64,000 nt of DNA from Gammaproteobacteria bacterium (GTDB lineage Bacteria; Pseudomonadota; Gammaproteobacteria; SZUA-229), in the NCBI GenBank assembly GCA_024636785.1, contig JAGXGK010000003.1:72027-136026 (forward strand). Reading direction: 5' to 3'. The position numbers and the translations under genes are program-made. Shown here piece by piece: positions 5,554-25,320 of the stretch; the stretch's first letter is position 1, and each line of letters starts with the position of its first letter. The notes beneath the pieces are model-generated. The model saw only the letters and a list, made by a program, of their open reading frames with translations, did no database searches and was not told where the DNA came from.

Positions 5554-6285
5554 TTACTTCTTCTTAGCCGGAGCCAGATAGGACTTGATTGGAGAAGAGG
5601 CAATGTCGTTTCCAGCCTGCAGGCCGATATAAACGAGTGCGCGAGTCGGACTGGGGCCGAAACCCGGTGAGCGTGCAACTATATTTATTTTCAGCGGCCG
5701 GCGTCCCGCCATTATTTTTATTTCTTTCTGCTGTGTCGCCAGGCTGTCGGTAAAGGGCAGCTTGAGCACATCTTCCCCGCCTATGGAAATCTCAACGGCG
5801 ATCTCGACATTGCCCGCGCCGCCGACCTCGCGCGGTGGCGTAGGCTTAATGACCAGCTGATAGAGGCCGCTCTGCGTTATCATCAATTCGCCTTCGATGG
5901 AAACCGCCGCAACCGGGTAGCGCGAGGGATCGGAACGCTCATCAAAAAAACCGCTGTATCTGTATCCGTAGTCCTCGGGATTCAGTTTAATAACCGGCCC
6001 CAGTGTCATCCGGCCTTCCCGTAACGGGACTTCGGCATCCGACTCGAAATCTGAATTTTGTGACAGCCAGTAACGGCTGGAAACGGTAGCGACTGTTATT
6101 ATTTCCGGGCCGGCGGTAGCGGCTGCTTGCACGTCTTCAGACAACTGTGATTTATTAGCCAGCCCGGCATTTTTTTCCAGGCGTTCGATACGCTGTTTCA
6201 GCTGTTCGATGCTTTCCCATAACCGCTGATCATCCTGGGCCATAACAGATGTTGAGAACATCAGCAAAAGTACAATACGCAGCAT
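5554..6285 (-). CDS. Hypothetical secreted protein with an N-terminal coiled-coil, coupled to the response regulator
   Basis: Start MLRIVLLLMFSTSVMAQDD at 6285 shares one base with the upstream stop (TAATG). I do not recognise a family. Confidence 0.6.
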   Translation of the reverse strand: MLRIVLLLMFSTSVMAQDDQRLWESIEQLKQRIERLEKNAGLANKSQLSEDVQAAATAGPEIITVATVSSRYWLSQNSDFESDAEVPLREGRMTLGPVIKLNPEDYGYRYSGFFDERSDPSRYPVAAVSIEGELMITQSGLYQLVIKPTPPREVGGAGNVEIAVEISIGGEDVLKLPFTDSLATQQKEIKIMAGRRPLKINIVARSPGFGPSPTRALVYIGLQAGNDIASSPIKSYLAPAKKK

Positions 6286-7694
6286 TATCGCTCCTCGATT
6301 TTGTAACGTTTCATTTTGCGCCACAGCGTCGACTTATCAATGCCGAGGATTTCTGCTGCCAGGGTCCGGTCACTGCCCTGTTCGCGCAGTGTTTTACGAA
6401 TAAAGTAGGCTTCAATTTCTTCCAGACTTTGCGGCGCGACAAAATCCAGCGCGCGCAATTGCGAACCGTCATCTTCAGCCAGCTCAGCCGGTAACGCCTC
6501 TTCATTGACCCGATTACCCGTTGCCATGATGGTCATGCTCAGCACCACATTTTCCAGCTCACGCACATTCCCCGGCCAGTCATGCCGCATCAATACGCCC
6601 AGCACTTTGGTGGACATGCCATTCAGTGATTTACCCAGGCGGGTGGAGTGACGACTGAGAAAAAAGTTGGCCAGCAGGGGGATATCCTGACGACGCTCAC
6701 GCAGAGCAGGCAGTGCAATATCGATAACCTTCAGTCGGTAGAAAAGATCCTGACGAAACTCTTCGCTCTTTATCATTTCCGGCAGATTGCGGTTACTCGC
6801 GGTAATCACCCGCAAATCGACCTGCTGCGCTTCGGTATCACCAATTCGGTAGTAACTGCCGTCCTGCAAAACCCGCAACAGTTTGGCCTGCAATGAAAGC
6901 GAAGCGTTGTTGATTTCATCCAGAAACAGGGTGCCGCCATTGGCCTGTTCAAGCAGGCCCGCCTTGTTTCGGTCCGCACCGGTGAAAGCGCCTTTCATGT
7001 AACCGAACAGTTCACTCTCGATAATGTTTTCCGGAATAGCTGCACAGTTGACGGCAATAAAAGATTTATCACGGCGATCGCTGAGAGAATAAATGCGTCT
7101 GGCGACCAGCTCTTTGCCACAGCCACTCTCGCCGGAAATAAGCACATTGCAATCATAAGCGGCTGCGGCTTCTATCAGTTTTTCTACTTTCGCCATGGCC
7201 AGCGACTGGCCATACAGCAACCGATATTTTTCATATGATTCAACATTGTCGCGTGAACGTAGTTGCTCGTTTTCGGTGCTGAGCTGATAGTATGCCAGCG
7301 CACGCCCCACGGTATGCAACAGCTCATCATTATCAAAGGGTTTGCGAATATAGTCGAACGCACCTGCTTTTAAAGCTTTGACTGCCGACTCCACGGTGCC
7401 ATGTCCGGTCACCATCACTACCTGTGTGCGCGGATTGGCATGGCGTGCAAAATTGAGGATATCGATACCATCAACAAAAGGCATTTTCAGATCGGTCACC
7501 ACTACCGCAACCTCTGTACCGGACTCGATCAAATCCAGCGCATGCTGGGGACTGTCCGCCGCAATCACTTCGGCATCAAGTTTGCCGATAACAGTAGCGA
7601 CAAGCTCACGCATCCGGTCATCATCCTCGGCAATAATGATCCGTGGTAACTCATCGCGGCTCGTATCAATTACGGCTTTCACTGAGTTACTCAT
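6285..7694 (-). CDS. Sigma54-dependent response regulator (NtrC/Fis family: REC + AAA+ + HTH)
   Basis: Receiver domain (IIIAEDDD...TDLKMP), Walker A GESGCGKE, GAFTGA loop, C-terminal Fis-type HTH. Confidence 0.9.
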   Translation of the reverse strand: MSNSVKAVIDTSRDELPRIIIAEDDDRMRELVATVIGKLDAEVIAADSPQHALDLIESGTEVAVVVTDLKMPFVDGIDILNFARHANPRTQVVMVTGHGTVESAVKALKAGAFDYIRKPFDNDELLHTVGRALAYYQLSTENEQLRSRDNVESYEKYRLLYGQSLAMAKVEKLIEAAAAYDCNVLISGESGCGKELVARRIYSLSDRRDKSFIAVNCAAIPENIIESELFGYMKGAFTGADRNKAGLLEQANGGTLFLDEINNASLSLQAKLLRVLQDGSYYRIGDTEAQQVDLRVITASNRNLPEMIKSEEFRQDLFYRLKVIDIALPALRERRQDIPLLANFFLSRHSTRLGKSLNGMSTKVLGVLMRHDWPGNVRELENVVLSMTIMATGNRVNEEALPAELAEDDGSQLRALDFVAPQSLEEIEAYFIRKTLREQGSDRTLAAEILGIDKSTLWRKMKRYKIEER

Positions 7695-9109
7695 TAATTT
7701 TTTACTCCTCGTAATTTCATAATAAATCGAGCGCCTTCTTTGTAGGTGCTATCCAGATCAAGCGATGCACCGCGCCGTCGCAGCATGGCCTGACTGATGG
7801 ACAGGCCCAGGCCGGTGCCTTCTCCGGCTTCTTTAGAGGTAAAGAAAGGCTCGAAGATACGGCGACGATCCTCAGCAGGAATTCCCGGGCCATTATCTTC
7901 AACCGCAAGCTCTACCCCGCGTGCACCAACACTGCGGGTGGTGATGTGAATCACACCATCCTGCCGCTCCTCAAGTGCGTGCAGTGCATTGAGCAGCAGG
8001 TTGGACAGAGCAATGTCGAGCTCGCCGCAGGGCATCTCTACAGCGGGCAGATTATCATCCAGATTGAGATGAATTTTTGTCGACTGGCGCTTCAACATGC
8101 AGGAGAGAAAAGTATCGACCAGATCCTGGATCAGCACATTAACATCACACTCCTCATCGGTACAGCTATCGCGGCGGGCGTAGCTGAGCAGGTCGTTGAC
8201 AATACGTGAACAGCGCCGGGCTTCATCAGCAATAAAATGCGAGTAACGTAATTTTTTTTCTTCATCAACATCCTCGCTGTTAAACAGCTGTGAGTAGCCC
8301 AGGATATTTCCCAGCGGTGTATTCAACTCATGCGCAATACCAGCGGCCAGCTGTCCCATCGCTACCAGTTTTTCCCTGTTATAGACGGAGTCGAGCAGCT
8401 GCTGATAATCAGTGATGTCCTGCAACGTTATTACCGCATCGACTTCGGCTTCATCTTTAGAATAAAAAGCGATATTGATTGAGATATAACGCTCCGACTC
8501 AGCGACCATGGTATGAATAACGTAATTCTCCACCGGCTGCTTATAGAGAAAGGCATCGCGTAGAGTATCGCTGTCGTGCGGTTCCAGATTGAACACATCA
8601 AACAGCATCTCGCCCAGCAATAAATCAGACTCCCGCTTGAACAATTCGACCGCCTGAGGGTTGGTATTAACCACTATAAGATCATCATCCACCGCTAACA
8701 GGGCACCCGGCATACTGCCGAGCAGGGCATCCATCTTATTGCGTTCGGTCACCACCCGATTCTGACATTCCTCCACCATGGTGAACATGGTGCTGAGGTT
8801 TTTCATCATGGTGTTGTAGTCATGTACCAATTTTTGCGAGAGCGAATCTCCATAATTGATGTCGACCAGATGGGTGAGCGCACCTTCATGCGCATCGAGC
8901 ACGGCTTCGTGCATCAGCGCCATAGTTCTACGATGCAGATACAGCATTGCCATGGCAAGCAGCAGCAGGGCTTCCAGCAAAAGCAGGCCTACGCTTTGAT
9001 ATGTCCATGAAAAATCGTTTTGCTGGATAAAAAAGATGGCAGTTGCGCAGGGAGCTGCAACAGCCATCAACAGGAGTATTTTTAGAAGTGCGTCAAACAG
9101 ATAAACCAT
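7694..9109 (-). CDS. Sensor histidine kinase (2 TM segments, PAS-like domain, HisKA, HATPase)
   Basis: H-box [12 protein letters not shown], and N/G boxes ([22 protein letters not shown]). Its stop overlaps the regulator start at 7694. Confidence 0.9.
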
Positions 9110-9247: not shown

Positions 9248-10423
9248 TTAGAAAATCATCTGCAAGCCAAGTGTTGCCTGATCATAATCCTGCAGTGCCG
9301 CATTAGTCGGATGCTGATCATTGAACTCAATCGATGCAAACTCAGCGGTCACCTTCAGCTGCTGGCCATTGATGTAGTAATTGGCCCCTACCGAATTCGA
9401 GGTCAGGTCCGAAAGGCCGGTGTTAACGCCGTAATCGATCTCTTCTGATCTGGCAAATATCTGCAAACGACCGATACCCACCGGATTCGGCAACAGATAG
9501 CCCGCTTTCACATAAGCGCCTTCACGTTCAGCCCACGGCGACAAAGTCGGATCGGGACTAACCGGGTAGCCATCCAGGCTGTAATCAAAATAGGCGGCTG
9601 AAGCCGTGACGGTGCCGAACGCATAGGGATATTCAAAGAAGATATCGTAGGTTGTCGCCTTGTAATCTTTGACATCGGTTTTAGTCGCAAAATTGCCGTA
9701 AGCAACATCGGCCTGCGAGTCAACGGAGACACCCAGAGTCAGTACCTTCTGCGTACCCAGATAGGTGCCGCGATAACCGTAGGAATATTCAGGATCAAGC
9801 AGACTGACATGGGCGCGTGCGGTCACTCGTGGTGAAGATTTCACAACATTTTCACCCTCGCGTCCATCACTGACTGAAAGGCGGTACTGGAACATGGCAT
9901 CGTTCAGATTGCCCCACATGGTCACGCCGGTATCGCGGGTTCCGCCGTAGGGTGTATAGGGCAGATTCTCACCCCGATCCAGGGTCAGTGGCTCCAGACA
10001 CGCTTCCAGGTTTTCACGACTGAAGGTGTTTTTGTAACGCCCGATAATGAATCTGAAGGCATCACTGGAATCGATGGTTAAATAGGCATCGCGATAGTAA
10101 ACGGCGCGATTATCCTGTCCGCCCTTGCTATCATTACCCGCCTCGAGCTGGGCATAGAAACCAATATAGTCATTATACTGACCAAGAAAAGTTATACGGT
10201 TGCGACGTAAGAAGCTGTCATAGACATCACCGTCATCATTGGCCGAGGTATAGCCCCGCTTCTGCGTCCAGAATTGAGCCGCGTAAGTGATCTCCATATA
10301 GCCTTCATCACCCACCTGAAAACTGGGCCCGGCCAACACCGTCTGCTGTGCGCCGAAACCGGTGAGCGCTAATGCTACCGCAGCGCATAATGAACGTTTG
10401 TAATACTGACGATTATTTTTCAT
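9248..10423 (-). CDS. Outer-membrane porin-like beta-barrel (candidate ExtI-like partner of the adjacent cytochromes)
   Basis: Signal peptide ...TVLA-GP, amphipathic strands rich in Tyr/Gly throughout, terminal LGLQMIF. It starts 15 nt after the triheme gene ends. Confidence 0.7.
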   Translation of the reverse strand: MKNNRQYYKRSLCAAVALALTGFGAQQTVLAGPSFQVGDEGYMEITYAAQFWTQKRGYTSANDDGDVYDSFLRRNRITFLGQYNDYIGFYAQLEAGNDSKGGQDNRAVYYRDAYLTIDSSDAFRFIIGRYKNTFSRENLEACLEPLTLDRGENLPYTPYGGTRDTGVTMWGNLNDAMFQYRLSVSDGREGENVVKSSPRVTARAHVSLLDPEYSYGYRGTYLGTQKVLTLGVSVDSQADVAYGNFATKTDVKDYKATTYDIFFEYPYAFGTVTASAAYFDYSLDGYPVSPDPTLSPWAEREGAYVKAGYLLPNPVGIGRLQIFARSEEIDYGVNTGLSDLTSNSVGANYYINGQQLKVTAEFASIEFNDQHPTNAALQDYDQATLGLQMIF

Positions 10424-10437
10424 TGTTATCCCCTTTA

Positions 10438-10926
10438 TTAATCTTTCTGATATTTGTCGAGCAGTGTTTTCATGTCACCGTCGCTGTGGCAATCAGCACA
10501 GCTTTTCTGCGGCTCGGTTCTCGGATCGCCGATTAGATCTTTATGCGCCATTTTTTGAAGCATCAGCCGTTCGTTACCCTGATGGCAACCCACGCAGGAG
10601 TGATTTACTTTGTTATGCTGCTCATGCCAGTCTTTCGTCGATGGCGCTGCCGCGCGTTTGTCATTATGGCACTTATAACAGGATGACAAACCGAGTCCGC
10701 AGGCGTTGGCCACGGAGATCGGAGAAGCCGTCACAATGCCCTCATGCACACCGGCCAGAACATCACTGCCCCAGCTACCATCCTCAGCCACCGGCATGCC
10801 GTTATCGGCGACATAGCCCGCATAACCCGACCATACGATCGCCACCATGGGTATGACTAAAAGTGGCAAGCCGACTTTGCGCAGCCATTTTGCCCAACCC
10901 GTTGCATTATTTTTTATCTGTTTCAT
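10438..10926 (-). CDS. Triheme c-type cytochrome with an N-terminal membrane anchor
   Basis: Three CxxCH motifs (CYKCH, CVGCH, CADCH) and a hydrophobic N-terminal segment. Confidence 0.85.
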   Translation of the reverse strand: MKQIKNNATGWAKWLRKVGLPLLVIPMVAIVWSGYAGYVADNGMPVAEDGSWGSDVLAGVHEGIVTASPISVANACGLGLSSCYKCHNDKRAAAPSTKDWHEQHNKVNHSCVGCHQGNERLMLQKMAHKDLIGDPRTEPQKSCADCHSDGDMKTLLDKYQKD

Positions 10927-11189
10927 TCTTCCTCCGAGTCTCTGTTACGAGATGATTCTAATAATTGTGTATCTTGAGCAGCACCGTTCTCATTTGTGCC
11001 CTGCTCTAATTTTTTACTCGCCTGTATATCCTTTTCACTCAGCCCTCTGGCGCACATACAAACCGGCCCGCTCTTAAACTTTAACCTGGGCGATGAATTA
11101 TCCCTGCCCTTTTCATTTGCATAGAGGGGGCTGGTCATCAACAACATGCCCAATATGATCAAAATTTTCATAAACCCCCTCTCAGCCAA
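10923..11189 (-). CDS. Small secreted hypothetical protein (same position as ExtJ)
   Basis: MKILIILGMLLMTSPLYA signal peptide. Its stop overlaps the triheme start (ATGA, 10923-10926). The real start is probably ATG 11171. Confidence 0.55.
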   Translation of the reverse strand: MAERGFMKILIILGMLLMTSPLYANEKGRDNSSPRLKFKSGPVCMCARGLSEKDIQASKKLEQGTNENGAAQDTQLLESSRNRDSEEE

Positions 11190-11313
11190 TTAGCCCCTGA
11201 CTAAAGATAATGCATATCTTATGCCAACCTGTATATATCAATACTTTCATATAGTTAGGTTAATTAGTGATTTACCTCTGCATTGCACGGGTTGCCATTG
11301 GCAGCATATGATC

Positions 11314-12528
11314 TCAATTTGCAACGCCCGGCAATGCCCGCTCAGCAGCGATGAATTCATACTCGGTTGCGCGCGTCTCCGCAATGGCCTGCTGTAACAG
11401 ATCGAGTACCACCGGCTTCAGGCTCCTGCGGTTACTGGCCAGATAGGACTCGAAAGTGAGCCGATACTGCTGACGCGGCGCGACCTGAATACGCAGGCGG
11501 ATGCTCCCCGGTTGAACCATCCCATCATGGCGGCCGCTGAGCGTGCGCGTCCGGCCTGCGGCCAGTCGGGTATCAAAAAGCTCTTCGGTCAGCGCGAGAT
11601 TAGCCTTCCAGGCGATCACGTCCCGCGCCAGCCCGGTGACCTCGCCCGCTGCATTGACATATTCAAGATGCAGCACCACTTCCGGCACCATGTAGGTGGG
11701 GAAATCATGGCCGGCGCCGGTGTTGGTGACCGCTGCCGTGGCACCGACAATATTACCCTCCTCCTGCAACCAGGTGATCTCCACCGTCAGCGCCGAGGCG
11801 GTCATGGCCGGGTCATGAATTCCCCGCCACTGGTGCTTGCGTTCAGGCATGTGACAGCTCTGGCAGTGCCTGCCTTCATCGGCAAAGCGCGTGGCGCGCC
11901 ACTGGCTATAGGTATCCTCGCGCAACTTGCCGTTCAGCCTCGGCCCGTCTTCGGCAAACTGGTGACAGTTGGCGCAGAAGCGGCTGTCGGCAAAAGCATC
12001 GTGCTCGACAAAACCGCCATGCGCGCTTTCCGTCACCGGCACACGTGCTTTTGGCCCGAAACGGGTATGGGCGCGAACGTGACAGGCGGCGCAGACCAGC
12101 CCCTGCTGGTGCAGATCCGGTGGAATATATTCCGGCGGCGGCATAGTCAATTTAGACCAGCCGCGTTGCTGCGAGAGCAAGGCCAGCTGCTCGGTCATGG
12201 GGGCGTGACAGCGCAGACAGGATTGGGCCGTTTTCGGATCGGCAATTTGCAACTGCCAGAGTATGCCCGGCCCCATGGTGTGACTGTGCAAACTGCCGCG
12301 CCACTGCTGAAACTGTTCAGCATGGCAGCTGCCACAATCCGCCGGCGCCACCGAAGCCTCCAGCGCGGAAAACTCAGCAGGCGGCTGACCCTGCGCGGGA
12401 ATCGGGTAGGCCCAGTGCTGCTCGAGAAAATCATCCACCGCAACCGGCGCCTGCTCAGCCATAAACCACCAGCCCCCCGCGAGCACCGCCAGCAGCAGCG
12501 CGATAAATCCGACCCCTTTCAGCATCAC
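11314..12528 (-). CDS. Pentaheme c-type cytochrome (periplasmic)
   Basis: Five CxxCH motifs (CGSCH, CLRCH, CAACH, CANCH, CQSCH) and an N-terminal signal/anchor. Confidence 0.85.
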   Translation of the reverse strand: MMLKGVGFIALLLAVLAGGWWFMAEQAPVAVDDFLEQHWAYPIPAQGQPPAEFSALEASVAPADCGSCHAEQFQQWRGSLHSHTMGPGILWQLQIADPKTAQSCLRCHAPMTEQLALLSQQRGWSKLTMPPPEYIPPDLHQQGLVCAACHVRAHTRFGPKARVPVTESAHGGFVEHDAFADSRFCANCHQFAEDGPRLNGKLREDTYSQWRATRFADEGRHCQSCHMPERKHQWRGIHDPAMTASALTVEITWLQEEGNIVGATAAVTNTGAGHDFPTYMVPEVVLHLEYVNAAGEVTGLARDVIAWKANLALTEELFDTRLAAGRTRTLSGRHDGMVQPGSIRLRIQVAPRQQYRLTFESYLASNRRSLKPVVLDLLQQAIAETRATEYEFIAAERALPGVAN

Positions 12529-12618
12529 CTTGCGTTACTCCCGTTGCATCGCACCCGCTAAACAACATCGCCTTCAGCCAGTGCAAAAAAATTCGATGAA
12601 AAGCTTATCATTTTACAG

Positions 12619-12650
12619 AAAAAAAAAGGCAGCCACCGAAGGGACTGCCC
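12619..12650 (-). terminator. Hairpin followed by a T9 run after the rhodanese lipoprotein gene (possible attenuating terminator)
   Basis: The ggcag...ctgcc stem has an A9 run on the plus strand, which reads as T9 on the minus strand just 3' of the stem. Confidence 0.5.
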
Positions 12651-12673
12651 GTTGTAGCCGTTATCAGGCTGTA

Positions 12674-14131
12674 TTAACCACCGCAGGGGTTGGCAGGTAA
12701 ACCACCGCCGGTTGTAGTACCGCCGGTTGATGTTGTACCTGTATCAACAACAATACCTTTATAGGCCAGATCTTCAACAATGATATTCTGAGCTGAACCT
12801 GCATAGGCATCAACAATAACACCGGAAGTAGTCGGTGGATCTACTGCTACGCTTTTCAGGAAGTAGTGACTGCGATCCACCGTATCTGTACGCCATGGGG
12901 AATTGACTGGCATCAGCAACTCACCATTACTGTCTTCTATCGCAGACAGTGAATGCCACTCGGTCATCGCACCATCATAGAAGCGGGTGGGCAGACCCAG
13001 AATCGCGGTTGAGGCAAAACCTGTCACCATGGCACGGTAGGTGGTTTCACAATAGGTATAAATAGTGTCACCGGACTGATAGGCGCTGCCATTACCCACT
13101 GGCTGCAGAGTAATATCAAGGAAGCCGTTGCCACCAACGTCTGTATCACCATCCACATAGGCCTGAAGTTCAGCCTTGGTTTTGTAGCTATAACCGTTCG
13201 CGGTATCAAGCAGGTTGCTAAAGTTCAGATCCAGCGCACCATTGGGATGTCCCTGAACAGGGCCAGTCTGAAAGTCACTATCGCCAGTCGGATAGTACTG
13301 ATTGCTACCGCGGGCATCCCAGATGAATACACCATCGTCCAGTATATTTATATCGGTTGTCGGAACGATATTCACCATGTCTTCCAGCGTGGCCTGCAGG
13401 GCAAAATTGATCGCCGGCAGATCTTTCACCGAGGCAGTTCCGGTTTCAGGCGCTATATCGGCAGTCGCTGACATAGAGAGCGAGTTAGGAACCCCTGCAT
13501 TCCACTCATTGCCTCCGTTCAGCACCGCAACCTGGCCTTTAAGCATGCCCCAGTAACGCAAGGTATACCAGCAACGGCCTGCTTGCATCGCCGCAAAATT
13601 GCCCGCTTTACCCTGTGCACAGACCACCATATCCTTGCTCGGATCGATATTGTATTTGGACAGGAAGGCGTCCATCATCTCACCGCTAGGTACCATGCTC
13701 TTGGTCTGCACCACGCCATTCGAGCGAAGCTCATTCACCATAGGCGCATCATAGGTAAATACACCTTGACTCGGATTAGAGGCTATATATTCATAAGTAG
13801 CAATATCACTACCCGCCTGCAGAATAATCAGTTTGCTATCGGGATCCAGACCGACCGGGCGGCTGGGTGTAACAGGATCGGACCAGTTTGTTACCCAGGT
13901 TTCCAGCGTGGCACCGGTAATCAGGCCATAGATGTTATCGTCATAGTTAGCGGCGGATGTTGTCGTCAATGACGCCGGGCTCGCCATCTCCGGCAAGGTT
14001 ACTGTCGATGAGGTATTCAACCCTATGCTGTCTTCTGTACCCGAACAACCGGCCAGAACTATCGTTGTGGCAGCTACAAGACCGACAAGGCCTCTTCTGC
14101 CGCGTTGCACTCTTATCATTTTATTCATCAC
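12674..14131 (-). CDS. Tandem rhodanese-like lipoprotein (ExtH-like) with a Thr/Gly-rich C-terminal tail ending PCGG
   Basis: Lipobox VLAGC. Two rhodanese-type active-site loops (VVCAQGKAGN, YTYCETTYRA). C-terminus ...TGTTSTGGTTTGGGLPANPCGG. Confidence 0.7.
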   Translation of the reverse strand: MMNKMIRVQRGRRGLVGLVAATTIVLAGCSGTEDSIGLNTSSTVTLPEMASPASLTTTSAANYDDNIYGLITGATLETWVTNWSDPVTPSRPVGLDPDSKLIILQAGSDIATYEYIASNPSQGVFTYDAPMVNELRSNGVVQTKSMVPSGEMMDAFLSKYNIDPSKDMVVCAQGKAGNFAAMQAGRCWYTLRYWGMLKGQVAVLNGGNEWNAGVPNSLSMSATADIAPETGTASVKDLPAINFALQATLEDMVNIVPTTDINILDDGVFIWDARGSNQYYPTGDSDFQTGPVQGHPNGALDLNFSNLLDTANGYSYKTKAELQAYVDGDTDVGGNGFLDITLQPVGNGSAYQSGDTIYTYCETTYRAMVTGFASTAILGLPTRFYDGAMTEWHSLSAIEDSNGELLMPVNSPWRTDTVDRSHYFLKSVAVDPPTTSGVIVDAYAGSAQNIIVEDLAYKGIVVDTGTTSTGGTTTGGGLPANPCGG

Positions 14132-14238: not shown

Positions 14239-14424
14239 TCAGGCTGATTTAATTACTATTGGAATCTCGTTATCATTCAAGTTATCCAACACTGCTGCTG
14301 CACCTGTTTCGACTGCGGTTTTTTCACATTTTCTGCCGAGTTCCTGCAGGCCTTTTTCAATCATCGACTGGAGCTGTGCATCACCCTCTCCCACGATGAA
14401 TAATCGAACGTTTTTTTCACTCAT
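14239..14424 (-). CDS. Small hypothetical protein (61 aa), third member of the mini DsrE/F/H-like set
   Basis: ATGA overlap with the upstream ORF (14421-14424). The size and position suggest a DsrH/TusB-like role, but the sequence alone is not diagnostic. Confidence 0.45.
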   Translation of the reverse strand: MSEKNVRLFIVGEGDAQLQSMIEKGLQELGRKCEKTAVETGAAAVLDNLNDNEIPIVIKSA

Positions 14425-14681
14425 ACCACGTACACCACGTCTGCGTTGACAATCATTTCCGCCAGCACCACCGGCGCGTTTTCATCGATATCGACCACCG
14501 GTACGTCGGCGAAATCGAGCGATTCGAGCTGCAATTCCACCTCGGCATCAGCACGATCAAGCTCGCCGACTACGGCGACCTGAATAACATCATCGAGCAG
14601 GGTCAAACCGGTGGCCATGCGCAGGGCTTCGGCTTTTTTGTGGCGTGCAATCATCAGCACATTTTTAATTTCATCACTCAT
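14421..14681 (-). CDS. Small DsrE/DsrF-fold-like hypothetical protein (86 aa, no cysteine)
   Basis: VLMIARHKKAEALRMATGLTLLDD is reminiscent of the DsrF/TusC N-terminal strand-helix. It is translationally coupled to its neighbours. Confidence 0.5.
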   Translation of the reverse strand: MSDEIKNVLMIARHKKAEALRMATGLTLLDDVIQVAVVGELDRADAEVELQLESLDFADVPVVDIDENAPVVLAEMIVNADVVYVV

Positions 14682-14690
14682 CGGTTACCC

Positions 14691-15005
14691 CTAAAAAACC
14701 AGCACTTTATCGCAATGACGAACCAGTTCAGCGTTCTGATACTGGCCACCCACAATCAGTACGTCTTCAAGCGCTTTCAGATCAACCTCAGGGCAGATTC
14801 GCTCGACTGAATGTTCACATACCGACAGGTGTACCCGCTGCTGGTCGGCGACGTTGATAAATTGCTCGTTCCGGATCAGGTTGACGCCGTTATCGGTGAG
14901 GAAACAACGAACATTCCAGTCTCTCGCCAGCGCTGCTTGCATGAGATCAGTCACATGCTGCGAGTGTTTTTCATCGGTGACTACCAGGCCAAAGTTCATA
15001 CTCAC
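14691..15005 (-). CDS. DsrE/DsrF-like family protein (104 aa)
   Basis: FGLVVTDEKHSQHVTDLMQAALA...VHLSVCEHS...VLVF resembles the DsrE/TusD fold, with a candidate active Cys. It overlaps the tusA-like stop by 4 nt. Confidence 0.6.
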   Translation of the reverse strand: MSMNFGLVVTDEKHSQHVTDLMQAALARDWNVRCFLTDNGVNLIRNEQFINVADQQRVHLSVCEHSVERICPEVDLKALEDVLIVGGQYQNAELVRHCDKVLVF

Positions 15006-15318: not shown

Positions 15319-16764
15319 TTAAATATTGAATTCGTCATCCTCGGTTCGCCATTCAATCCACATGTTGAATGCCTTCACACCCAGCAGACCACCCAGGGTC
15401 ATGCCCGCCAGGAATATCCAGCCGCTCAGGTCGCCGTTGGTGACGGCGGCGAAGAAGGCACCGACGTTACAGCCCATGCCGACGCGAGCGCCGATACCCA
15501 TGAGCGCGCCACCAACCAGGGCGAAGGTGGCGGTTTCAATGTTCGGGACTTTCCATTTGAATTCGCGACGCGTCAATGCCAGCACCGCAGCACCAAGAAT
15601 AATGCCGACTGACATCCACAGCGGTGCATTGACCAGCGGATTAGGCAGACCATTGATCAGGCCGAAGAAAATGTTGTCTCTGGTGTCTCTGCCCAGGCCT
15701 TCAAGTATCCAGCCACCGAGCTGTGCTTCCTGCGTGGTGATGTACCAGTAGCCGGGGTCGAAAACCGTCAGGTTCATCGACAGGCCATCGGTATGGCCCA
15801 TCTTTTCCAGAAGCGTACCAAAGTTGTCTATGTTGTAGTACTCACGCAAGGCACCGGTGACCCACATTTGCAGACCGGCGAACACACCCAGGCCGAGACC
15901 GGCGAGCGCGGTGTTTTTCGATGCCGTCATCATTGCCCAGAAGCCTCGCATTTCATCTTTCATGCCGGGTGAGGCGAGCTTGAGTCGGCGAACATAACCT
16001 TTGCGGTAGGTGGTGAGGTAAAGCACGATAAGCACGGCGATAGTCGGCAGAATGGCCCCCAGCAGTGCGTTACCGATAAATACATCAAACCAGACATTAC
16101 CAGTATCGAGCGACTGGGCGACGGTGCCGCCGGAAAGATCCCAGATGTAACCGGCATTGAACAGGTCGAACCAGCCATTGGTAGCTGAGAGCTCTTCCGG
16201 CATGCCTTTGTCTACGGCCGAAGCGACCCAGCTATCGGGCGCGAAGGCATTGGACCAGCTGCCCATATCGACAAACAGCGCCTGCGAAAATGAAATACTA
16301 ACTAGCACCAGCATCGAACTCATATTGCCTTCGCCGCTTTTATACAGCGAGCCGGAGGCGCAACCGCCGGCGAAGACCATACCAAAACCAAAGATCAGGC
16401 CGCCGAAAATAATATGCCAGCCCAGTGGATTGGCATGAAACGTACTATATCCGCCCACCGTCACCATCCCCGCGGTAATGGAAAACAGTGCCGTGGCGAT
16501 CATCACGCCCACCGCCATACGCGGCACCTTCACGGCAAACAGATCACGCACCGCCGAGGCCATGCAGAAACGTCCGTACTGCAACAGCACGCCGTAGGCG
16601 AGACCAAACCAGACATATACCAGCAGATAAATCCAGCGCGTGTCCATCGCCAGTACTACCACTGATAAAACCGCCACAGCAGCGATAATAAACATTGCTT
16701 TATAGCCACCTTCATGAGCAAACGTACTGGGGGTGCTCACTGCTTGCGTTGCATCTGTACTCAT
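15319..16764 (-). CDS. YeeE/YedE-family sulfur-compound (thiosulfate/selenium-associated) transporter, unusually long
   Basis: Duplicated half-motifs with conserved Cys (FAGGCASGSLYKSGEG; GMGCNVGAFF) and many TM segments. At 481 aa it is longer than the roughly 350 aa I recall as typical. Confidence 0.85.
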   Translation of the reverse strand: MSTDATQAVSTPSTFAHEGGYKAMFIIAAVAVLSVVVLAMDTRWIYLLVYVWFGLAYGVLLQYGRFCMASAVRDLFAVKVPRMAVGVMIATALFSITAGMVTVGGYSTFHANPLGWHIIFGGLIFGFGMVFAGGCASGSLYKSGEGNMSSMLVLVSISFSQALFVDMGSWSNAFAPDSWVASAVDKGMPEELSATNGWFDLFNAGYIWDLSGGTVAQSLDTGNVWFDVFIGNALLGAILPTIAVLIVLYLTTYRKGYVRRLKLASPGMKDEMRGFWAMMTASKNTALAGLGLGVFAGLQMWVTGALREYYNIDNFGTLLEKMGHTDGLSMNLTVFDPGYWYITTQEAQLGGWILEGLGRDTRDNIFFGLINGLPNPLVNAPLWMSVGIILGAAVLALTRREFKWKVPNIETATFALVGGALMGIGARVGMGCNVGAFFAAVTNGDLSGWIFLAGMTLGGLLGVKAFNMWIEWRTEDDEFNI

Positions 16765-16815: not shown

Positions 16816-17202
16816 TTATTCTTCTCGACGCACATAAATGTGCCAGTTACCCTGCCTCTGTACCGTACCCAGATGCCTGCCTTCATAAATATCCATCATT
16901 GAAGGTATGGTTTCGACCACCGACAGATTGTCAGTAATCACCTCTATCACCACCCCCTTCGGATTGTCATTCAAAGCCTTTAGCGTCAGCAACTGAGGTC
17001 TCGGGCATCCTTCACCTTCACAGGCCACACGGCATCCCACCTCTATTATTCCGTGCCCCGGCAACTCGACCTGATCTGATACCTTCATACAGGCGCGATG
17101 CCGTTTTGCAGGAACCACATCCAGATTAAGGTGAAATAGATTTGATAAAAACATACGCATCTCTTTGAATCGTTGTTTTACATTATGCATCTTCCATGCC
17201 AT
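16816..17202 (-). CDS. TusA-family sulfurtransferase with an uncertain N-terminal extension
   Basis: GEGCPRPQLLTLKALNDNPKGVVIEVITDN... is the TusA CPxP core. The true start may be ATG 17088 (MKVSDQ). Confidence 0.65.
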   Translation of the reverse strand: MAWKMHNVKQRFKEMRMFLSNLFHLNLDVVPAKRHRACMKVSDQVELPGHGIIEVGCRVACEGEGCPRPQLLTLKALNDNPKGVVIEVITDNLSVVETIPSMMDIYEGRHLGTVQRQGNWHIYVRREE

Positions 17203-17355
17203 ATCATAAATTTATATAAATAACAGGGAGATAGTGTTTTTGTGTGCACAAATCACTAAAAAAAAATGCAAGACAATCCACGCCTGAAGCCCCCATATCG
17301 GAAAATGCAATAGAGGCCGGAGACCAACCCGGCGGACTAAATCCCGACAGGTGAA

Positions 17356-17820: not shown

Positions 17821-18228
17821 CTAACGAGCAGTACCAAAACTCTCATTTTCGGTATGGGTTGGAACAGACAATCCTGCAATACGCATCCCTTGTGCCACAG
17901 GGCCTTCTGGAAACAGCGTATGTAAATATTCACGACCGCCCTGCTCAGAAAATGCCTCATCAAGCATGTCGCCAAGTTCACGACCATTTTCAGCCTGGCC
18001 ATTATCCAGATAATAATCCTGCAACTTCTGTATTACTTTAAAATGCGCGTCGGTGAGCTCTAAGCCCTCTGCCGACGCGATTTCTCTGGCTCGATCCTCA
18101 TCCCAGGCCTGCAACTCCTGCTCACGCCCTGTGCGCTGCTGGCTCGCAATATCTGTATCGACACTTCTATCCATCATCTCAACAGCCTCAGCCTCGGGAG
18201 ATGTGGATTTTTTTTCATAATCAGTCAT
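17821..18228 (-). CDS. DsrC/TusE-like protein lacking both conserved cysteines
   Basis: ELTDAHFKVIQKLQDYY...YLHTLFPEGPVAQGMRIAGLSVPT matches the DsrC/TusE core. The protein has no Cys at all and ends PTHTENESFGTAR where PTGCV would be expected. Start at ATG 18228 follows AGAGGA. Confidence 0.75.
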   Translation of the reverse strand: MTDYEKKSTSPEAEAVEMMDRSVDTDIASQQRTGREQELQAWDEDRAREIASAEGLELTDAHFKVIQKLQDYYLDNGQAENGRELGDMLDEAFSEQGGREYLHTLFPEGPVAQGMRIAGLSVPTHTENESFGTAR

Positions 18229-18833
18229 AATATTTTTCCTCTTTTTAATTACTATTTTATAAAGATAACAGAAAACCTGCCTCATTAAAATTTTGATGCG
18301 CTGACACTTAAAAATCATCTAGAGATATATTAGGACCTTTTAACGTACCAACATTATAAATTTTACGTTCAGAATCTCGCCTTCATACTTAATAATATGG
18401 AAATTTTAACACTCCTCATGCAAGAGTAATAAATCACAATTTTGTGGTTGATTTTTAACAGCATTTATAATTCTTACTTATGCTGCACATTTTATATGGT
18501 AATAACACATTCATAAAAACAGAATGACAGTGGCTGACTGTTTTCTGATTTAGCCAGACAATGAACCATTCGCTGCCTGGCAGATAAAAGCAAAAGAAAT
18601 CTGATTAACAAAAAACGCTTTAACCGGTGATCGACTGCCGGCCAAAACAAAGCGGCGCTCAGCCTAAAAATGCAATTAATTTATTGTTTTTCAGAGGAAA
18701 AGTTAAGCGGTGAATCAAGTCGAGCCTGATCCCCTTCTGCCCCACATCCCCGTCATTCTGGCGCAGGCCGGAACTCAGATGCTTGACTGCGATATTTAGA
18801 ACTTATTAGCGTAATTAATTAAAAAATGGAACG

Positions 18834-22471: not shown

Positions 22472-24379
<1,908 letters not shown>

Positions 24380-24648
24380 TTAAGCTGCGGTTTTAGTATT
24401 AACAATGGTCGTTAATATTAACATGCTAAAGCCGATATTAACCCTAAGAGGCTGTCGGGTTTAGAGGGATTAATGCGAGGGAGTGGGAAATTTTGGGCAG
24501 CTCTCCCGCTTCCATAGCCAATTCATCCTGAAAACGGCCTTTCGCGGCGCCTGTCACCCGTTATACCTGCTTGCCGGCATTTGCCATCTTTTGGAGTCGC
24601 GGGGTACAATCCCCAGCCATAATAAGATGACTTCAATAGCTACATGTG

Positions 24649-25320
24649 ATGGAAAGTATGGATTTCGAACAAGCCCGTTTCAATATGGTTGAGCAACAGG
24701 TACGCCCGTGGAATGTTTACGACCCCCGCGTTCTTGAGGTCATTAGCCGAATCCCCCGCGAAGATTTCGTGCCCGATGAGTACCGCAATCTGGCTTATGC
24801 CGACATTTGCATCCCGTTGAGTAACGAGGCCTACAGCAGTAGCATGCTGCACCCCAACATTGAAGGTCGCATACTGCAAAATCTGAGTATTGATGAGGAT
24901 GATGTGGTGCTGGAAATCGGCACCGGCAGCGGTTATCTCACCGCCTGCCTGGCCGCACTGGCGCGCCATGTGGACAGCGTTGAAATCAACACCGAGCTGT
25001 ACGAGCTGGCCAAAAAGAATCTGGCGGTTCATGACATCCACAATGTCAGCATCAGCAATGGCGATGCCGGCAAGGACTGGAATCAAAAACAGTTTTACGA
25101 TGCCATCGCGATCACCGGCTCCCTGCCCGAAATTCCCCAGACCTACAAAAAGAAACTTAAAGTGGGCGGCCGCCTGTTCGTGGTCACCGGTGAGGCTCCG
25201 GCGATGACAGCGCAGTTGCTTACCCGTATCGGCAAAAATGAATGGTCGACAGAAAATTTGTTCGAGGCCTGTATTGAGCCGTTGTGCGGTACTCAAAAAG
25301 CCAGCCTTTTTGATTTTTAA
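24649..25320 (+). CDS. Protein-L-isoaspartate O-methyltransferase family protein
   Basis: FEQARFNMVEQQVRPW..., SAM motif VLEIGTGSGYLTACLA, GGRLFVV. GTG 24646 and ATG 24658 are alternative starts. Confidence 0.8.
   Translation: MESMDFEQARFNMVEQQVRPWNVYDPRVLEVISRIPREDFVPDEYRNLAYADICIPLSNEAYSSSMLHPNIEGRILQNLSIDEDDVVLEIGTGSGYLTACLAALARHVDSVEINTELYELAKKNLAVHDIHNVSISNGDAGKDWNQKQFYDAIAITGSLPEIPQTYKKKLKVGGRLFVVTGEAPAMTAQLLTRIGKNEWSTENLFEACIEPLCGTQKASLFDF

What the first reader, a model, noticed from the sequence alone, without database searches (positions are those of the whole stretch)
9248..14131. ExtHIJKL-like porin-cytochrome module with a rearranged gene order inside a gammaproteobacterial sulfur locus
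The sequence shows five co-directional, tightly packed genes:
- a lipoprotein with two rhodanese-type Cys loops
- a 5xCxxCH cytochrome
- an 88-aa secreted protein
- a 3xCxxCH cytochrome
- a 391-aa beta-barrel ending in Phe

Spacing is tight, with an ATGA overlap at 10923-10926 and a 14-nt gap before the barrel gene. This is exactly the component list described for Geobacter sulfurreducens ExtHIJKL: rhodanese lipoprotein, porin, small periplasmic protein, pentaheme and triheme. That cluster has been implicated in trans-outer-membrane electron transfer and in selenite/tellurite reduction.

Here the order is H-K-J-L-I and the triheme carries a membrane anchor. My inference is that this is an uncharacterised outer-membrane redox conduit in a sulfide oxidiser, possibly linking periplasmic S/Se/Te chemistry to the cell exterior.
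Basis: partly seen in the sequence, partly recalled or inferred. Interest (0 to 1): 0.78.

Follow-up and report, generated by a model that had tools for sequence, protein, structure and literature searches.

The report
Sulfur-uptake porin module, not electron conduit
The five genes are real and partly related to the Geobacter Ext genes, but they look like the outer-membrane and periplasmic half of a widely conserved, jointly regulated system that brings inorganic sulfur compounds into sulfur-oxidising bacteria, rather than a wire carrying electrons across the outer membrane.

Summary
All five minus-strand genes exist as described. Relationship to the Geobacter-type Ext proteins:
- **Porin (9248-10423):** a bona fide ExtI-family member (NCBIfam 353.6 bits against a cut-off of 150; 41% identical to Geotalea ExtI).
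- **Rhodanese lipoprotein:** a distant ExtH relative.
- **Pentaheme:** a remote homologue of ExtKL/MccSep (hhalign 98.7%) that lacks both MccSep catalytic residues.
- **Small protein and triheme:** no Ext counterpart.

The conduit idea is not supported. The barrel models as a ~16-strand OprP/OprO-type anion porin. No cytochrome has a lipobox or more than 5 haems. ExtKL itself is now known as a periplasmic polysulfide reductase.

In about 60 of 80 species-level genomes of sulfur-oxidising Gamma- and Betaproteobacteria, the five genes sit between YeeE-TusA-DsrEFH-type-II ("YTD") genes and a sigma-54 two-component system. Three sigma-54 promoters share one enhancer motif.

Invariant cysteines mark four parts:
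- the porin, with a single Cys in loop L3;
- the rhodanese, in its active site and in a C-terminal NPCGG tail that resembles SoxY;
- the small protein, in a CxC motif;
- the triheme.

Best reading: regulated uptake and periplasmic S-S redox processing of a sulfur compound that feeds the cytoplasmic sulfur relay. This is a new variant of a known kind, of moderate interest.

The parts
12674..14131 (-). ExtH-like outer-membrane rhodanese lipoprotein (485 aa). It has lipobox LAGC (C29), a conserved active-site Cys361 (YCETTYRA), and a Gly/Ser/Thr-rich C-terminal arm ending NPCGG-COOH (C483).
   Evidence: NF040901, 116.8 bits, cut-off 200; invariant C29, C361, C483; 24% identity to Geotalea ExtH, E 2e-11; NPCGG in 54 of 60 loci.
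12627..12650 (-). Terminator-like hairpin followed by a run of T, directly after the rhodanese stop codon.
   Evidence: A weak chance Rfam match (sbrA) to the same hairpin appeared.
11314..12528 (-). Periplasmic pentaheme cytochrome with a C-terminal beta-sandwich. It is a remote homologue of MccSep/ExtKL and of T. tepidum pentaheme c552, lacks the MccSep catalytic Cys and Sec, and has five invariant non-motif His.
   Evidence: profile vs PDB: MccSep E 1.2e-11, 5ze8 E 1.4e-9; hhalign 98.7%; Foldseek top hit 5ze8, E 1.4e-11.
11282..11324 (-). Paired enhancer-like sites, TTGCAAAT (11324-11317) and TGCAAT (11287-11282), spaced 36 nt apart. The first overlaps the pentaheme TGA stop codon.
   Evidence: (same motif, spacing and distance to the promoter in most loci).
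11211..11226 (-). Sigma-54 type -24/-12 promoter (TGGCATAAGATATGCA) upstream of the small-triheme-porin operon.
   Evidence: (present between the pentaheme and small/triheme genes in 47 loci).
10923..11171 (-). Small secreted protein (82 aa from ATG 11171) with the invariant motif RLKFxxGPVCMCxxGLSExDI (CxC).
   Evidence: motif found in at least 52 of 71 loci; no similarity to ExtJ candidates.
10438..10926 (-). Triheme cytochrome (162 aa) with an N-terminal hydrophobic anchor or signal. It has an invariant extra Cys (C76) in ANACGLGASSC(F/Y)KCH just before haem motif 1, and three invariant non-motif His.
   Evidence: no counterpart in the Geotalea Ext locus.
9248..10423 (-). ExtI-family outer-membrane porin (391 aa), modelled as about 16 strands with an OprP/OprO-like fold. 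Its single mature Cys (C142) lies in the invariant motif SRENLEACxxPLTLDR, between strands 5 and 6 (the L3 position).
   Evidence: (NF040900, 353.6 bits, cut-off 150).
7694..9109 (-). PAS-domain sensor histidine kinase, conserved immediately downstream of the porin gene.
   Evidence: (74 of 80 loci).
6285..7694 (-). Sigma-54-dependent response regulator (receiver + AAA+ sigma-54 interaction domain + Fis-type HTH). It is the presumed activator of the three promoters.
   Evidence: (71 of 80 loci).
14239..15005 (-). Three small genes (104, 86 and 61 aa) in the position of the DsrE/F/H type II genes of the YTD cluster.
   Evidence: weak Pfam DsrE hit for the 104-aa protein. Assignment rests on order and size, by comparison with PMC13293266.
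15002..15274 (-). TusA/YeeD-type sulfurtransferase (CPHP motif).
15319..16764 (-). YeeE/YedE-family inner-membrane sulfur transporter (481 aa) with the three Cys-containing motifs.
   Evidence: (PF04143, E 3.9e-43).
16816..17160 (-). Second TusA-like protein. The true start is probably ATG 17160, downstream of the promoter.
17186..17311 (-). Sigma-54 promoter (17201-17186, TGGCATGGAAGATGCA) with two upstream ATTGCATTT / TTGCATTT sites (17311-17303 and 17271-17264) for the YTD-rhodanese operon.
   Evidence: promoter upstream of this gene in 37 loci; site pairs at about -110 and -70.

Best explanation
The five genes are the outer-membrane and periplasmic half of a sigma-54/two-component-controlled system for taking up and processing an inorganic sulfur compound in Dsr-type sulfur oxidisers.

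Proposed path. Only the gene content, homologies, conserved residues and shared promoter/enhancer architecture are shown; every step below is inferred.
1. An ExtI-type, OprP/OprO-fold anion porin admits a sulfur anion. The most likely candidates are polysulfide or another compound carrying sulfane sulfur or an S-S bond, such as thiosulfate or polythionate.
2. The outer-membrane-anchored ExtH-like rhodanese binds sulfane sulfur on Cys361 and/or on its flexible C-terminal ...NPCGG arm.
3. The MccSep-like pentaheme, the Cys-bearing triheme and the small CxC protein carry out the S-S bond redox step, exchanging electrons with the respiratory chain.
4. The product crosses the inner membrane through YeeE to TusA, DsrEFH type II and DsrC.

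The porin is a substrate channel, not a sheath for a cytochrome.
For: **Porin**
- It passes the curated ExtI cut-off.
- It models as ~16 strands, with OprP (E 5e-14) and OprO as the best PDB matches.

**Published work on the Geobacter homologues**
- ExtKL = MccSep is a periplasmic polysulfide reductase essential for S0 respiration. Its authors say the outer-membrane route for polysulfide is unknown.
- ExtI is reported to take up selenite and to affect ExtH localisation. This rests on the title of Jahan 2019, seen only as a reference.

**Synteny**
- Gene counts among 80 species-level loci: triheme 78, pentaheme 75, kinase 74, regulator 71, rhodanese 66, TusA 62, YeeE 61. Many absences are contig ends.
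- A compact variant, rhodanese-small-triheme-porin-YeeE-TusA-pentaheme, has gaps of 50 nt or less, most under 15 nt, in a Moraxellaceae MAG. Three other loci share it.

**Co-regulation**
- Sigma-54 -24/-12 boxes lie before the YTD operon, before the rhodanese gene and before the small gene. All share (A/G)TTGCAA(A/T)(A/T)T site pairs at about -110 and -70.
- A sigma-54 activator gene is adjacent.

**Invariant cysteines**
- Porin C142, the only mature Cys in 120 of 120 homologues.
- Rhodanese C361 and C483.
- Small-protein CxC.
- Triheme C76.

**Flanking genes**
- DsrC-like and SQR-like genes.
- DsrEFH type II is a demonstrated sulfur transferase whose substrate specificity is proposed to lie in the uptake system (PMC13293266).
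Against: - No experiment exists for any of these proteins in a sulfur oxidiser.
- The substrate and the direction of flux are unknown.
- The pentaheme lacks both MccSep catalytic residues, so its chemistry cannot be carried over.
- The window's pentaheme gene has no recognisable sigma-54 promoter and follows a terminator, so its coupling is by position only.
- The best NCBIfam hits for YeeE481 and the TusA-like protein are selenium-associated YedE/YedF, all below cut-off.
- Assigning the three small genes to DsrEFH type II rests on order, size and a weak Pfam hit.
- The porin model is of moderate confidence (pLDDT 71.8), and the L3 loop holding C142 is below 50.
- Geobacter strains retaining only extHIJKL still reduced some Fe/Mn oxide.
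Confidence: 0.58

Rival explanations
1. One reading: a porin-cytochrome conduit that carries electrons across the outer membrane, with one of the cytochromes or the rhodanese sitting in or on the barrel.
For: - Homology to a Geobacter cluster first described as a putative conduit. An extHIJKL-only strain kept partial Fe(III)/Mn(IV) oxide reduction.
- Cytochrome genes are translationally coupled to the porin gene.
- From general knowledge, Cyc2 shows that a 16-strand barrel can take part in redox chemistry at the outer membrane.
Against: - The barrel is ~16 strands and OprP/OprO-like, with an L3-type loop. From established knowledge, known conduits use 20-26-strand barrels and 8-10-haem periplasmic cytochromes.
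- There are only 5 and 3 haems, neither cytochrome has a lipobox, and there is no extracellular cytochrome.
- The pentaheme is a globular NrfA/c552-like domain plus a beta-sandwich.
- ExtKL is now a periplasmic polysulfide reductase.
- Tight linkage to the inner-membrane transporter YeeE and to cytoplasmic TusA points to substrate flow.
Confidence: 0.06
2. A selenite/tellurite uptake and reduction system, for detoxification or selenium assimilation, as the NCBIfam names imply.
For: - NCBIfam labels ExtI and ExtH as 'selenite/tellurite reduction operon' proteins.
- ExtI mutants in Geobacter are affected in selenite/tellurite reduction.
- MccSep also reduces selenite.
- The best models for YeeE481 and the TusA-like protein are the selenium-associated YedE/YedF.
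Against: - All YedE/YedF scores are far below cut-off.
- No selenoprotein, SECIS element or in-frame read-through is conserved here.
- The cluster is embedded in DsrEFH-II, DsrC-like and SQR genes. It is found overwhelmingly in obligate sulfur oxidisers.
- An 11-13 gene sigma-54 regulon is a heavy investment for a trace element.
Confidence: 0.12
3. Outward direction: the cytochromes oxidise sulfide or polysulfide in the periplasm. The porin and rhodanese then export polysulfide or S0 for extracellular sulfur deposition, or remobilise it later.
For: - Many carriers (Thioalkalivibrio, Ectothiorhodospiraceae, Thiobacillus) handle extracellular sulfur. This rests on general knowledge; the taxa are.
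- Cytochromes lacking the reductive MccSep catalytic dyad could work oxidatively.
- SQR is encoded nearby.
Against: - Co-regulation and operon fusion with the import chain YeeE-TusA-DsrEFH-II fit inward flow better.
- Carriers also include bacteria with intracellular sulfur globules (Thiodiazotropha) and apparent heterotrophs.
Confidence: 0.12
4. The gene neighbourhood is incidental. The porin is a general or phosphate porin, and the cytochromes and rhodanese serve unrelated functions.
For: - Some databases annotate homologues as phosphate-selective porin O/P.
Against: - Order is conserved across two proteobacterial classes in about 60 or more species.
- The genes share an enhancer motif and are translationally coupled.
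- A Cys motif is shared with Geobacter-type ExtI.
Confidence: 0.02

Closest known systems
Geobacter/Geotalea ExtHIJKL(MNOPQS) cluster: ExtH rhodanese lipoprotein, ExtI porin, ExtKL = MccSep polysulfide reductase
   Same: - The porin is an ExtI-family member: 41% identity, the same invariant ...SRENLEAC..PLTLDR motif, and a single mature Cys.
- A lipoprotein rhodanese is encoded alongside. It has a Gly-rich C-terminal arm ending in Cys.
- The pentaheme with a C-terminal beta-sandwich is homologous to MccSep.
- Both clusters have a link to zero-valent sulfur chemistry.
   Different: - Gene order differs.
- The rhodanese is only 24% identical and falls below the ExtH cut-off.
- The pentaheme lacks the haem-ligating Cys239 segment and the Sec325/Cys site, and it is not a selenoprotein.
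- The small protein is unrelated to ExtJ.
- There is an extra Cys-bearing triheme.
- ExtM, ExtN, the Rieske protein and cytochrome b are absent.
- The regulator is a sigma-54 two-component system instead of LysR.
- The module is fused to YeeE-TusA-DsrEFH-II.
- The host oxidises sulfur rather than reducing it.
YTD cluster / yeeE-tusA-dsrEFH type II (Umezawa 2020 as cited; PMC13293266; PMC13047784)
   Same: - The same five genes in the same order lie immediately upstream, and apparently in the same regulon.
- The sulfur-relay role has been shown in vitro for the cable-bacterial DsrEFH type II.
   Different: - Published descriptions that I could search do not mention an attached porin, rhodanese lipoprotein, cytochromes or a sigma-54 system.
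- Those descriptions centre on Desulfobacterota and Nitrospirota.
OprP/OprO anion-specific porins of Pseudomonas
   Same: - They are the best structural matches to the model, a ~16-strand barrel.
- Pfam PF07396 is recorded for homologues.
   Different: - Identity in the structural alignment is only 14-16%.
- There is no sequence-level PDB hit.
- The invariant Cys-containing L3 motif is absent from what is described for OprP/OprO.
Thermochromatium tepidum penta-heme cytochrome c552 (PDB 5ze8)
   Same: - It is the best solved structural match to the pentaheme model (E 1.4e-11, TM about 0.54).
- It has five haems plus a C-terminal beta domain, and it comes from a sulfur oxidiser.
   Different: - Identity is 19%.
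- Its physiological function is also unknown.
- Its gene context was not examined here.
SoxYZ/SoxXA thiosulfate-oxidising system (analogy only)
   Same: - A flexible Gly-rich C-terminal arm ends in ...CGG. SoxY ends in GGCGG, with the Cys carrying the sulfur substrate (general knowledge).
- c-type cytochromes are encoded alongside a Cys carrier.
   Different: - No sequence homology was detected.
- The arm is attached to a rhodanese lipoprotein.
- His/Cys haem ligation of the triheme is untested.

Membership tests
ExtI porin (NCBIfam NF040900) | Whole-protein score at or above the curated cut-off of 150 bits. | tested here: met
   353.6 bits, E 1.2e-105, covering 11-391 of the protein and 8-403 of 403 model positions. 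It is 41% identical to Geotalea ExtI, E 1e-81.
ExtI porin (NCBIfam NF040900) | Encoded next to an ExtH-type rhodanese lipoprotein and a multihaem cytochrome. | tested here: met
ExtI porin (NCBIfam NF040900) | Mediates selenite/tellurite uptake or reduction. | not testable with these tools
   Known only from Geobacter genetics.
ExtH rhodanese lipoprotein (NF040901) | Score at or above the curated cut-off of 200 bits. | tested here: not met
   116.8 bits, E 1.1e-33. It is 24% identical to Geotalea ExtH. A homologue, but not an equivalog.
ExtH rhodanese lipoprotein (NF040901) | Lipobox, a rhodanese domain with an active-site Cys, and a Gly-rich C-terminal arm ending in Cys. | tested here: met
   LAGC lipobox, invariant C361, and NPCGG-COOH. 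Geotalea ExtH ends ...GGSGGGC.
MccSep / ExtKL multihaem selenoprotein (NF040886; Sci Adv 2026) | Five CxxCH motifs on the MccSep fold. | tested here: met
   Five motifs. Profile vs PDB 9wt8, E 1.2e-11. hhalign 98.7% over 288 columns.
MccSep / ExtKL multihaem selenoprotein (NF040886; Sci Adv 2026) | Conserved Sec/Cys at the U325 position. | tested here: not met
   U325 aligns with M280 in PTYM. The protein's only cysteines are the ten in the CxxCH motifs.
MccSep / ExtKL multihaem selenoprotein (NF040886; Sci Adv 2026) | Haem-ligating Cys239. | tested here: not met
   The QCCTS segment is deleted in the alignment.
MccSep / ExtKL multihaem selenoprotein (NF040886; Sci Adv 2026) | NCBIfam score at or above 250 bits. 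| tested here: not met
   33.2 bits.
ExtJ small periplasmic protein | Sequence similarity to the small ORFs between extI and extK. | tested here: not met
   hhalign probability is below 1% against both Geotalea candidates. No NCBIfam or Pfam hit.
Porin-cytochrome trans-outer-membrane conduit (Mtr/Pcc/ExtABCD type) | A large barrel (about 20-26 strands) able to house a cytochrome. | tested here: not met
   About 16 strands. OprP, OprO and general trimeric porins are the top matches, and no MtrB-like hit appears among the top 50 listed.
Porin-cytochrome trans-outer-membrane conduit (Mtr/Pcc/ExtABCD type) | A periplasmic cytochrome of 8 or more haems and/or an outer-surface lipoprotein cytochrome. 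| tested here: not met
   5 and 3 haems, and no lipobox on either cytochrome.
Porin-cytochrome trans-outer-membrane conduit (Mtr/Pcc/ExtABCD type) | Physical insertion of a cytochrome in the barrel. | not testable with these tools
   No multimer prediction tool was available.
YTD / yeeE-tusA-dsrEFH type II cluster | yeeE/yedE-like, tusA and dsrE-like genes plus two small conserved genes, contiguous. | tested here: met
   PF04143 and PF01206 are strong hits and PF02635 is weak. Two small ORFs without a family follow, and the order is conserved in about 60 loci.
YTD / yeeE-tusA-dsrEFH type II cluster | A heterotrimeric DsrEFH-like structure and sulfur transfer to DsrC. | not tested
   Only the published work on cable-bacterial proteins is available.
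Sigma-54 regulon | -24 GG / -12 GC promoter boxes with upstream activator sites and a cognate enhancer-binding protein. | tested here: met
   promoters and site pairs conserved in position; Sigma54_activat, E 1.7e-68. Binding itself was not tested.

The most novel reading that the evidence does not exclude
The system is a cysteine relay spanning the whole cell envelope.

1. A porin whose only cysteine sits in its constriction loop passes sulfane sulfur covalently to the SoxY-like C-terminal Cys arm of an outer-membrane rhodanese.
2. A Cys-bearing triheme and a pentaheme make or break the S-S bond, helped by a CxC mini-protein.
3. The sulfur continues through YeeE to TusA, DsrEFH-II and DsrC.

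If true, this would be the long-sought route by which Dsr-type sulfur oxidisers bring extracytoplasmic zero-valent sulfur into the cytoplasm. It would also be the first porin to use thiol chemistry for transport.
Probability: 0.15. Interest if true: 0.85.

Novelty: new variant of a known kind. Interest (0 to 1): 0.55.

Why it matters
How sulfur oxidisers that use the reverse-Dsr pathway move insoluble or periplasmic zero-valent sulfur into the cytoplasm is a long-standing gap. The MccSep authors likewise state that the outer-membrane route for polysulfide is unknown.

This locus, conserved with shared regulation in dozens of Gamma- and Betaproteobacterial sulfur oxidisers, supplies a concrete and testable set of candidates for the outer-membrane and periplasmic steps:
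- a porin;
- a lipoprotein rhodanese with a carrier-like arm;
- two cytochromes;
- a CxC protein.

It ties these candidates to the YeeE-TusA-DsrEFH-II relay. It also cautions against scoring ExtI-like genes as markers of extracellular electron transfer or of selenite/tellurite reduction in metagenomes.

Tried and rejected
1. **Selenocysteine read-through at the pentaheme stop.** The stop is TGA in 62 of 74 loci. The downstream peptide is not conserved, and the apparent conservation is a DNA enhancer motif that contains the stop. Rfam found no SECIS or other RNA family.
2. **Small protein = ExtJ.** Rejected.
3. **Triheme = ExtL, ExtS or another Ext cytochrome.** Only weak haem-motif hits were found, and nothing in the Geotalea locus carries the C-x6-CxxCH motif context.
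4. **Two active rhodanese domains.** Only C361 is conserved.
5. **MtrB-like barrel.** Rejected by the model and by Foldseek.
6. **Sequence search of the porin against PDB.** No hit.
7. **Naming the organism.** The closest species representatives are unnamed Gammaproteobacteria MAGs at 75% porin identity.
8. **Literature searches for a prior description of this supercluster in sulfur oxidisers.** Only Jahan 2018 notes that ExtI homologues occur in Thiohalobacter and Thioalkalivibrio. The held library is incomplete, so prior description elsewhere cannot be excluded.
9. **Co-folding the barrel with the cytochromes.** No tool was available.

Full report
**1. Observation**

The window carries five co-directional minus-strand ORFs at the stated coordinates:
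- A 485-aa protein with lipobox LAGC and a Pfam Rhodanese domain (12674-14131).
- A 404-aa protein with five CxxCH motifs (11314-12528).
- A small secreted protein (10923-11189 as listed). Its likely start is ATG 11171, giving 82 aa, which is also what gene callers record on an identical contig.
- A 162-aa protein with three CxxCH motifs and an N-terminal hydrophobic segment (10438-10926).
- A 391-aa protein ending in Phe (9248-10423).

The ATGA overlap and the 14-nt gap are present.

Two details differ from the description:
- Only the second rhodanese Cys loop is conserved across relatives (C361). The first (C171) is not.
- Packing is tight only for small-triheme-porin. A terminator-like hairpin plus T-run follows the rhodanese gene (12650-12627), and the pentaheme-to-small gap holds a promoter (below).

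**2. Relation to Ext proteins**

Results against the NCBIfam models:
- The barrel scores 353.6 bits on porin_ExtI (cut-off 150).
- The rhodanese scores 116.8 bits on ExtH (cut-off 200).
- The pentaheme scores 33.2 bits on ExtKL (cut-off 250).
- The small protein matches nothing.
- The triheme gives only haem-motif-level hits.

I fetched a Geotalea daltonii-type extHIJKLMNOPQS locus (L081) and compared directly:
- Porin vs ExtI: 41% identity, E 1e-81.
- Rhodanese vs ExtH: 24% identity, E 2e-11.
- Pentaheme-family profile vs ExtKL: hhalign probability 98.7%, E 3.9e-16, over 288 columns.
- Small-protein profile vs both ORFs between extI and extK: probability below 1%.
- No Geotalea Ext protein carries the triheme's motif.

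The published description of ExtHIJKL has no triheme. ExtK and ExtL are two parts of a single pentaheme selenoprotein.

**3. What the Geobacter proteins are now known to do**

- ExtKL has been characterised as MccSep, a periplasmic homotetrameric pentaheme selenoenzyme. It reduces polysulfide at a haem ligated by Cys239 with Sec325 as nucleophile, and it is essential for S0 respiration.
- Its authors state that the route of polysulfide across the outer membrane is unknown (published version PMC13510729).
- ExtI is reported as a selenite-uptake porin that influences ExtH localisation. This rests on the title of Jahan et al. 2019, seen only as a reference, and on Jahan 2018.
- Jahan 2018 already noted ExtI homologues of 35-60% identity in Thiohalobacter and Thioalkalivibrio, none of them studied.

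**4. The barrel**

- The AlphaFold2 model (30-sequence alignment, pLDDT 71.8, pTM 0.71) has about 16 strands: 17 DSSP segments, one of them a short N-terminal piece.
- Foldseek against the PDB gives OprP (2o4v, E 5.4e-14) and OprO first, then classical 16-strand trimeric porins.
- The most conserved stretch of the family, SRENLEACxxPLTLDR, lies between strands 5 and 6. By analogy with porin topology, that is the position of the constriction loop L3. The placement is inferred, because this loop has pLDDT below 50.
- That stretch contains the only cysteine of the mature protein in 120 of 120 homologues, and also in Geotalea ExtI.

**5. The cytochromes**

Pentaheme:
- A profile of the family hits MccSep (PDB 9wt8, E 1.2e-11) and the T. 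tepidum penta-heme c552 (5ze8, E 1.4e-9).
- Its AlphaFold2 model (pLDDT 77.7) has a helical haem domain plus a C-terminal beta-sandwich. Its only strong PDB match is 5ze8 (E 1.4e-11, TM about 0.54).
- In the alignments, Sec325 corresponds to Met280 (GAGHDFPTYM), and the segment holding Cys239 is deleted.
- The protein has no cysteine outside its CxxCH motifs and has five invariant non-motif histidines.
- It is therefore a MccSep-fold protein but not a MccSep-type enzyme. All-bis-His ligation is my inference.

Triheme:
- The family has an invariant extra cysteine in ANACGLGASSC(F/Y)KCH, seven residues before haem motif 1, and three invariant non-motif histidines.
- Neither cytochrome has a lipobox.

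**6. The other two proteins**

- The rhodanese family has three invariant cysteines: the lipid-attachment Cys, the active-site Cys361, and Cys483 in a C-terminal ...NPCGG-COOH. That tail is present in 54 of 60 loci and follows a Gly/Ser/Thr-rich linker.
- Geotalea ExtH likewise ends in a Gly-rich arm with a terminal Cys.
- From general knowledge, this resembles the SoxY carrier arm (GGCGG-COOH). That is an analogy, not a tested homology.
- The small protein family has a signal peptide and an invariant RLKFxxGPVCMCxxGLSExDI motif. The motif is found in at least 52 of 71 loci, including Thiobacillus-type ones.

**7. Context**

A scan of one genome per species found 180 relatives of the porin, of which 80 loci were kept. 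They come from:
- Gammaproteobacteria: Thiohalobacter, Thiohalophilus, Thiohalomonas, Thiogranum, Thiodiazotropha, Thioalkalivibrio and Ectothiorhodospiraceae.
- Betaproteobacteria: Thiobacillus, Hydrogenophilus and Sideroxydans.

tblastn with the window's proteins shows one conserved order: TusA-like, YeeE, TusA, three small DsrEFH-type-II-like genes, rhodanese, pentaheme, small, triheme, porin, PAS histidine kinase, sigma-54 response regulator. Counts among 80 loci are triheme 78, pentaheme 75, kinase 74, regulator 71, rhodanese 66 and YeeE 61, with many absences due to contig ends.

Family assignments of the flanking genes come from Pfam and NCBIfam.

The upstream five genes correspond to the published "YTD" cluster. 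It is now read as yeeE-tusA-dsrEFH type II, a sulfur relay shown in vitro to feed DsrC. Its authors propose that substrate specificity lies in the uptake system.

Four loci carry a compact variant: rhodanese-small-triheme-porin-YeeE-TusA-pentaheme. In a Moraxellaceae MAG all seven genes are separated by 50 nt or less, most by under 15 nt.

Further upstream in the window lie a DsrC-like gene, an SQR-like flavoprotein gene and a second sigma-54 activator. Beyond about 22 kb the genes are housekeeping.

**8. Regulation**

The window has sigma-54-type -24/-12 boxes at two places on the minus strand:
- 11226-11211, before the small gene.
- 17201-17186, before the YTD operon.

Across the loci such boxes recur at the same three places:
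- Before the TusA-like gene (37 loci).
- Before the rhodanese gene (21 loci; no such box is recognisable in this window).
- Between the pentaheme and the small/triheme genes (47 loci).
- Between rhodanese and pentaheme there are only 2.

All three promoter classes carry paired (A/G)TTGCAA(A/T)(A/T)T sites about 110 and 70 nt upstream of the -24 box (window sites).

At the pentaheme-small junction the first site, ATTGCAAATTGA, contains the pentaheme stop codon. This explains both the recurrent ...IAN* C-terminus and the TGA bias (62 of 74), which I first suspected to be selenocysteine read-through.

The shared architecture, together with the adjacent sigma-54 activator gene, argues for one regulon. 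Binding itself has not been tested.

**9. Interpretation**

The evidence fits a regulated system that takes up an inorganic sulfur compound through an anion porin, handles it on thiols and haems in the periplasm, and passes it to YeeE, TusA and DsrEFH-II. I put this at about 0.58.

- **Shown:** gene content, homologies, conserved residues, synteny, and promoter/enhancer conservation.
- **Inferred:** the substrate (polysulfide or another sulfane- or S-S-containing anion is favoured because of MccSep, rhodanese and the persulfide relay), the inward direction, and the roles of the cytochromes.

Rivals, with my estimates:
- Trans-outer-membrane electron conduit: 0.06.
- Selenite/tellurite system: 0.12.
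- Outward sulfur export: 0.12.
- Incidental neighbourhood: 0.02.

The most novel reading not excluded is an envelope-spanning cysteine relay that starts at the porin's L3 cysteine and the rhodanese's SoxY-like arm (0.15).

**10. Novelty and score**

- ExtI membership is already captured by NCBI annotation, since many homologues are named ExtI. YTD/DsrEFH-II and MccSep are published.
- I could not find the following described in the searchable library, which is incomplete:
  - the fusion of these parts into one sigma-54 regulon in sulfur oxidisers;
  - the pentaheme lacking the catalytic residues;
  - the Cys-bearing triheme;
  - the CxC protein;
  - the NPCGG arm;
  - the functional reading of the single porin cysteine, which Jahan 2018 mentioned only as a generic outer-membrane-protein trait.
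- I class it as a new variant of a known kind, interest 0.55.

Noticed in passing
window 11282-11324 (minus strand); same position in most of L001-L079: The enhancer-like site ATTGCAAATTGA overlaps the last codons and the TGA stop of the pentaheme gene. This imposes a conserved ...IAN* C-terminus and a TGA bias (62 of 74 loci). A cis-regulatory site is therefore constraining a coding end.
   Followed up: yes
window 9248-10423 (Cys142, codon at about 9998-10000); P0001-P0120; L081 5970-7175: ExtI-family porins have exactly one cysteine in the mature protein (120 of 120). It lies inside the family's most conserved motif, SRENLEACxxPLTLDR, at the L3-loop position. Jahan 2018 mentioned the single Cys only as a generic outer-membrane-protein trait.
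   Followed up: partly
window 12674-12700 (C-terminus of the rhodanese); L081 about 5850-5903: The ExtH-like lipoproteins end in a low-complexity Gly/Ser/Thr arm with an invariant NPCGG-COOH. Geotalea ExtH ends ...GGSGGGC-COOH. This resembles the SoxY GGCGG carrier arm.
   Followed up: partly
L065, L069, L072 (7507-14121), L074: A compact seven-gene variant (rhodanese-small-triheme-porin-YeeE-TusA-pentaheme) lacks DsrEFH-II and the two-component system. It occurs in MAGs labelled Oceanospirillaceae, Spongiibacteraceae and Moraxellaceae. In L072 it is flanked by a divergent tandem rhodanese and housekeeping genes.
   Followed up: partly
window 17821-18318 (minus strand): A DsrC/TusE-family protein (Pfam DsrC, E 3e-21) ends ...ENESFGTAR and lacks the C-terminal cysteine arm of functional DsrC. 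It lies just upstream of the YTD operon.
   Followed up: no
window 18923-20191 (minus) and 20422-21741 (plus): An SQR-like flavoprotein (type III SQR model, 122 bits, below cut-off) is divergently paired with a second sigma-54 activator that lacks a receiver domain. This may be a sulfide-responsive regulator/SQR pair.
   Followed up: no
window 5554-6324 (minus strand): A 256-aa secreted protein with no Pfam or NCBIfam family overlaps the end of the response-regulator gene by about 40 nt. tblastn detected it in the same position in 20 loci.
   Followed up: no
window 22472-24364 (thiC, minus strand) and upstream 24365-24800: thiC is present, but no TPP riboswitch or any other Rfam family was detected upstream, even at E<=1. 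No Rfam family reached gathering score anywhere in the 64 kb.
   Followed up: partly
window 16816-17202 (minus strand): The listed ORF start (ATG 17202) lies inside the sigma-54 promoter box. The real start of the TusA-like gene is probably ATG 17160.
   Followed up: partly
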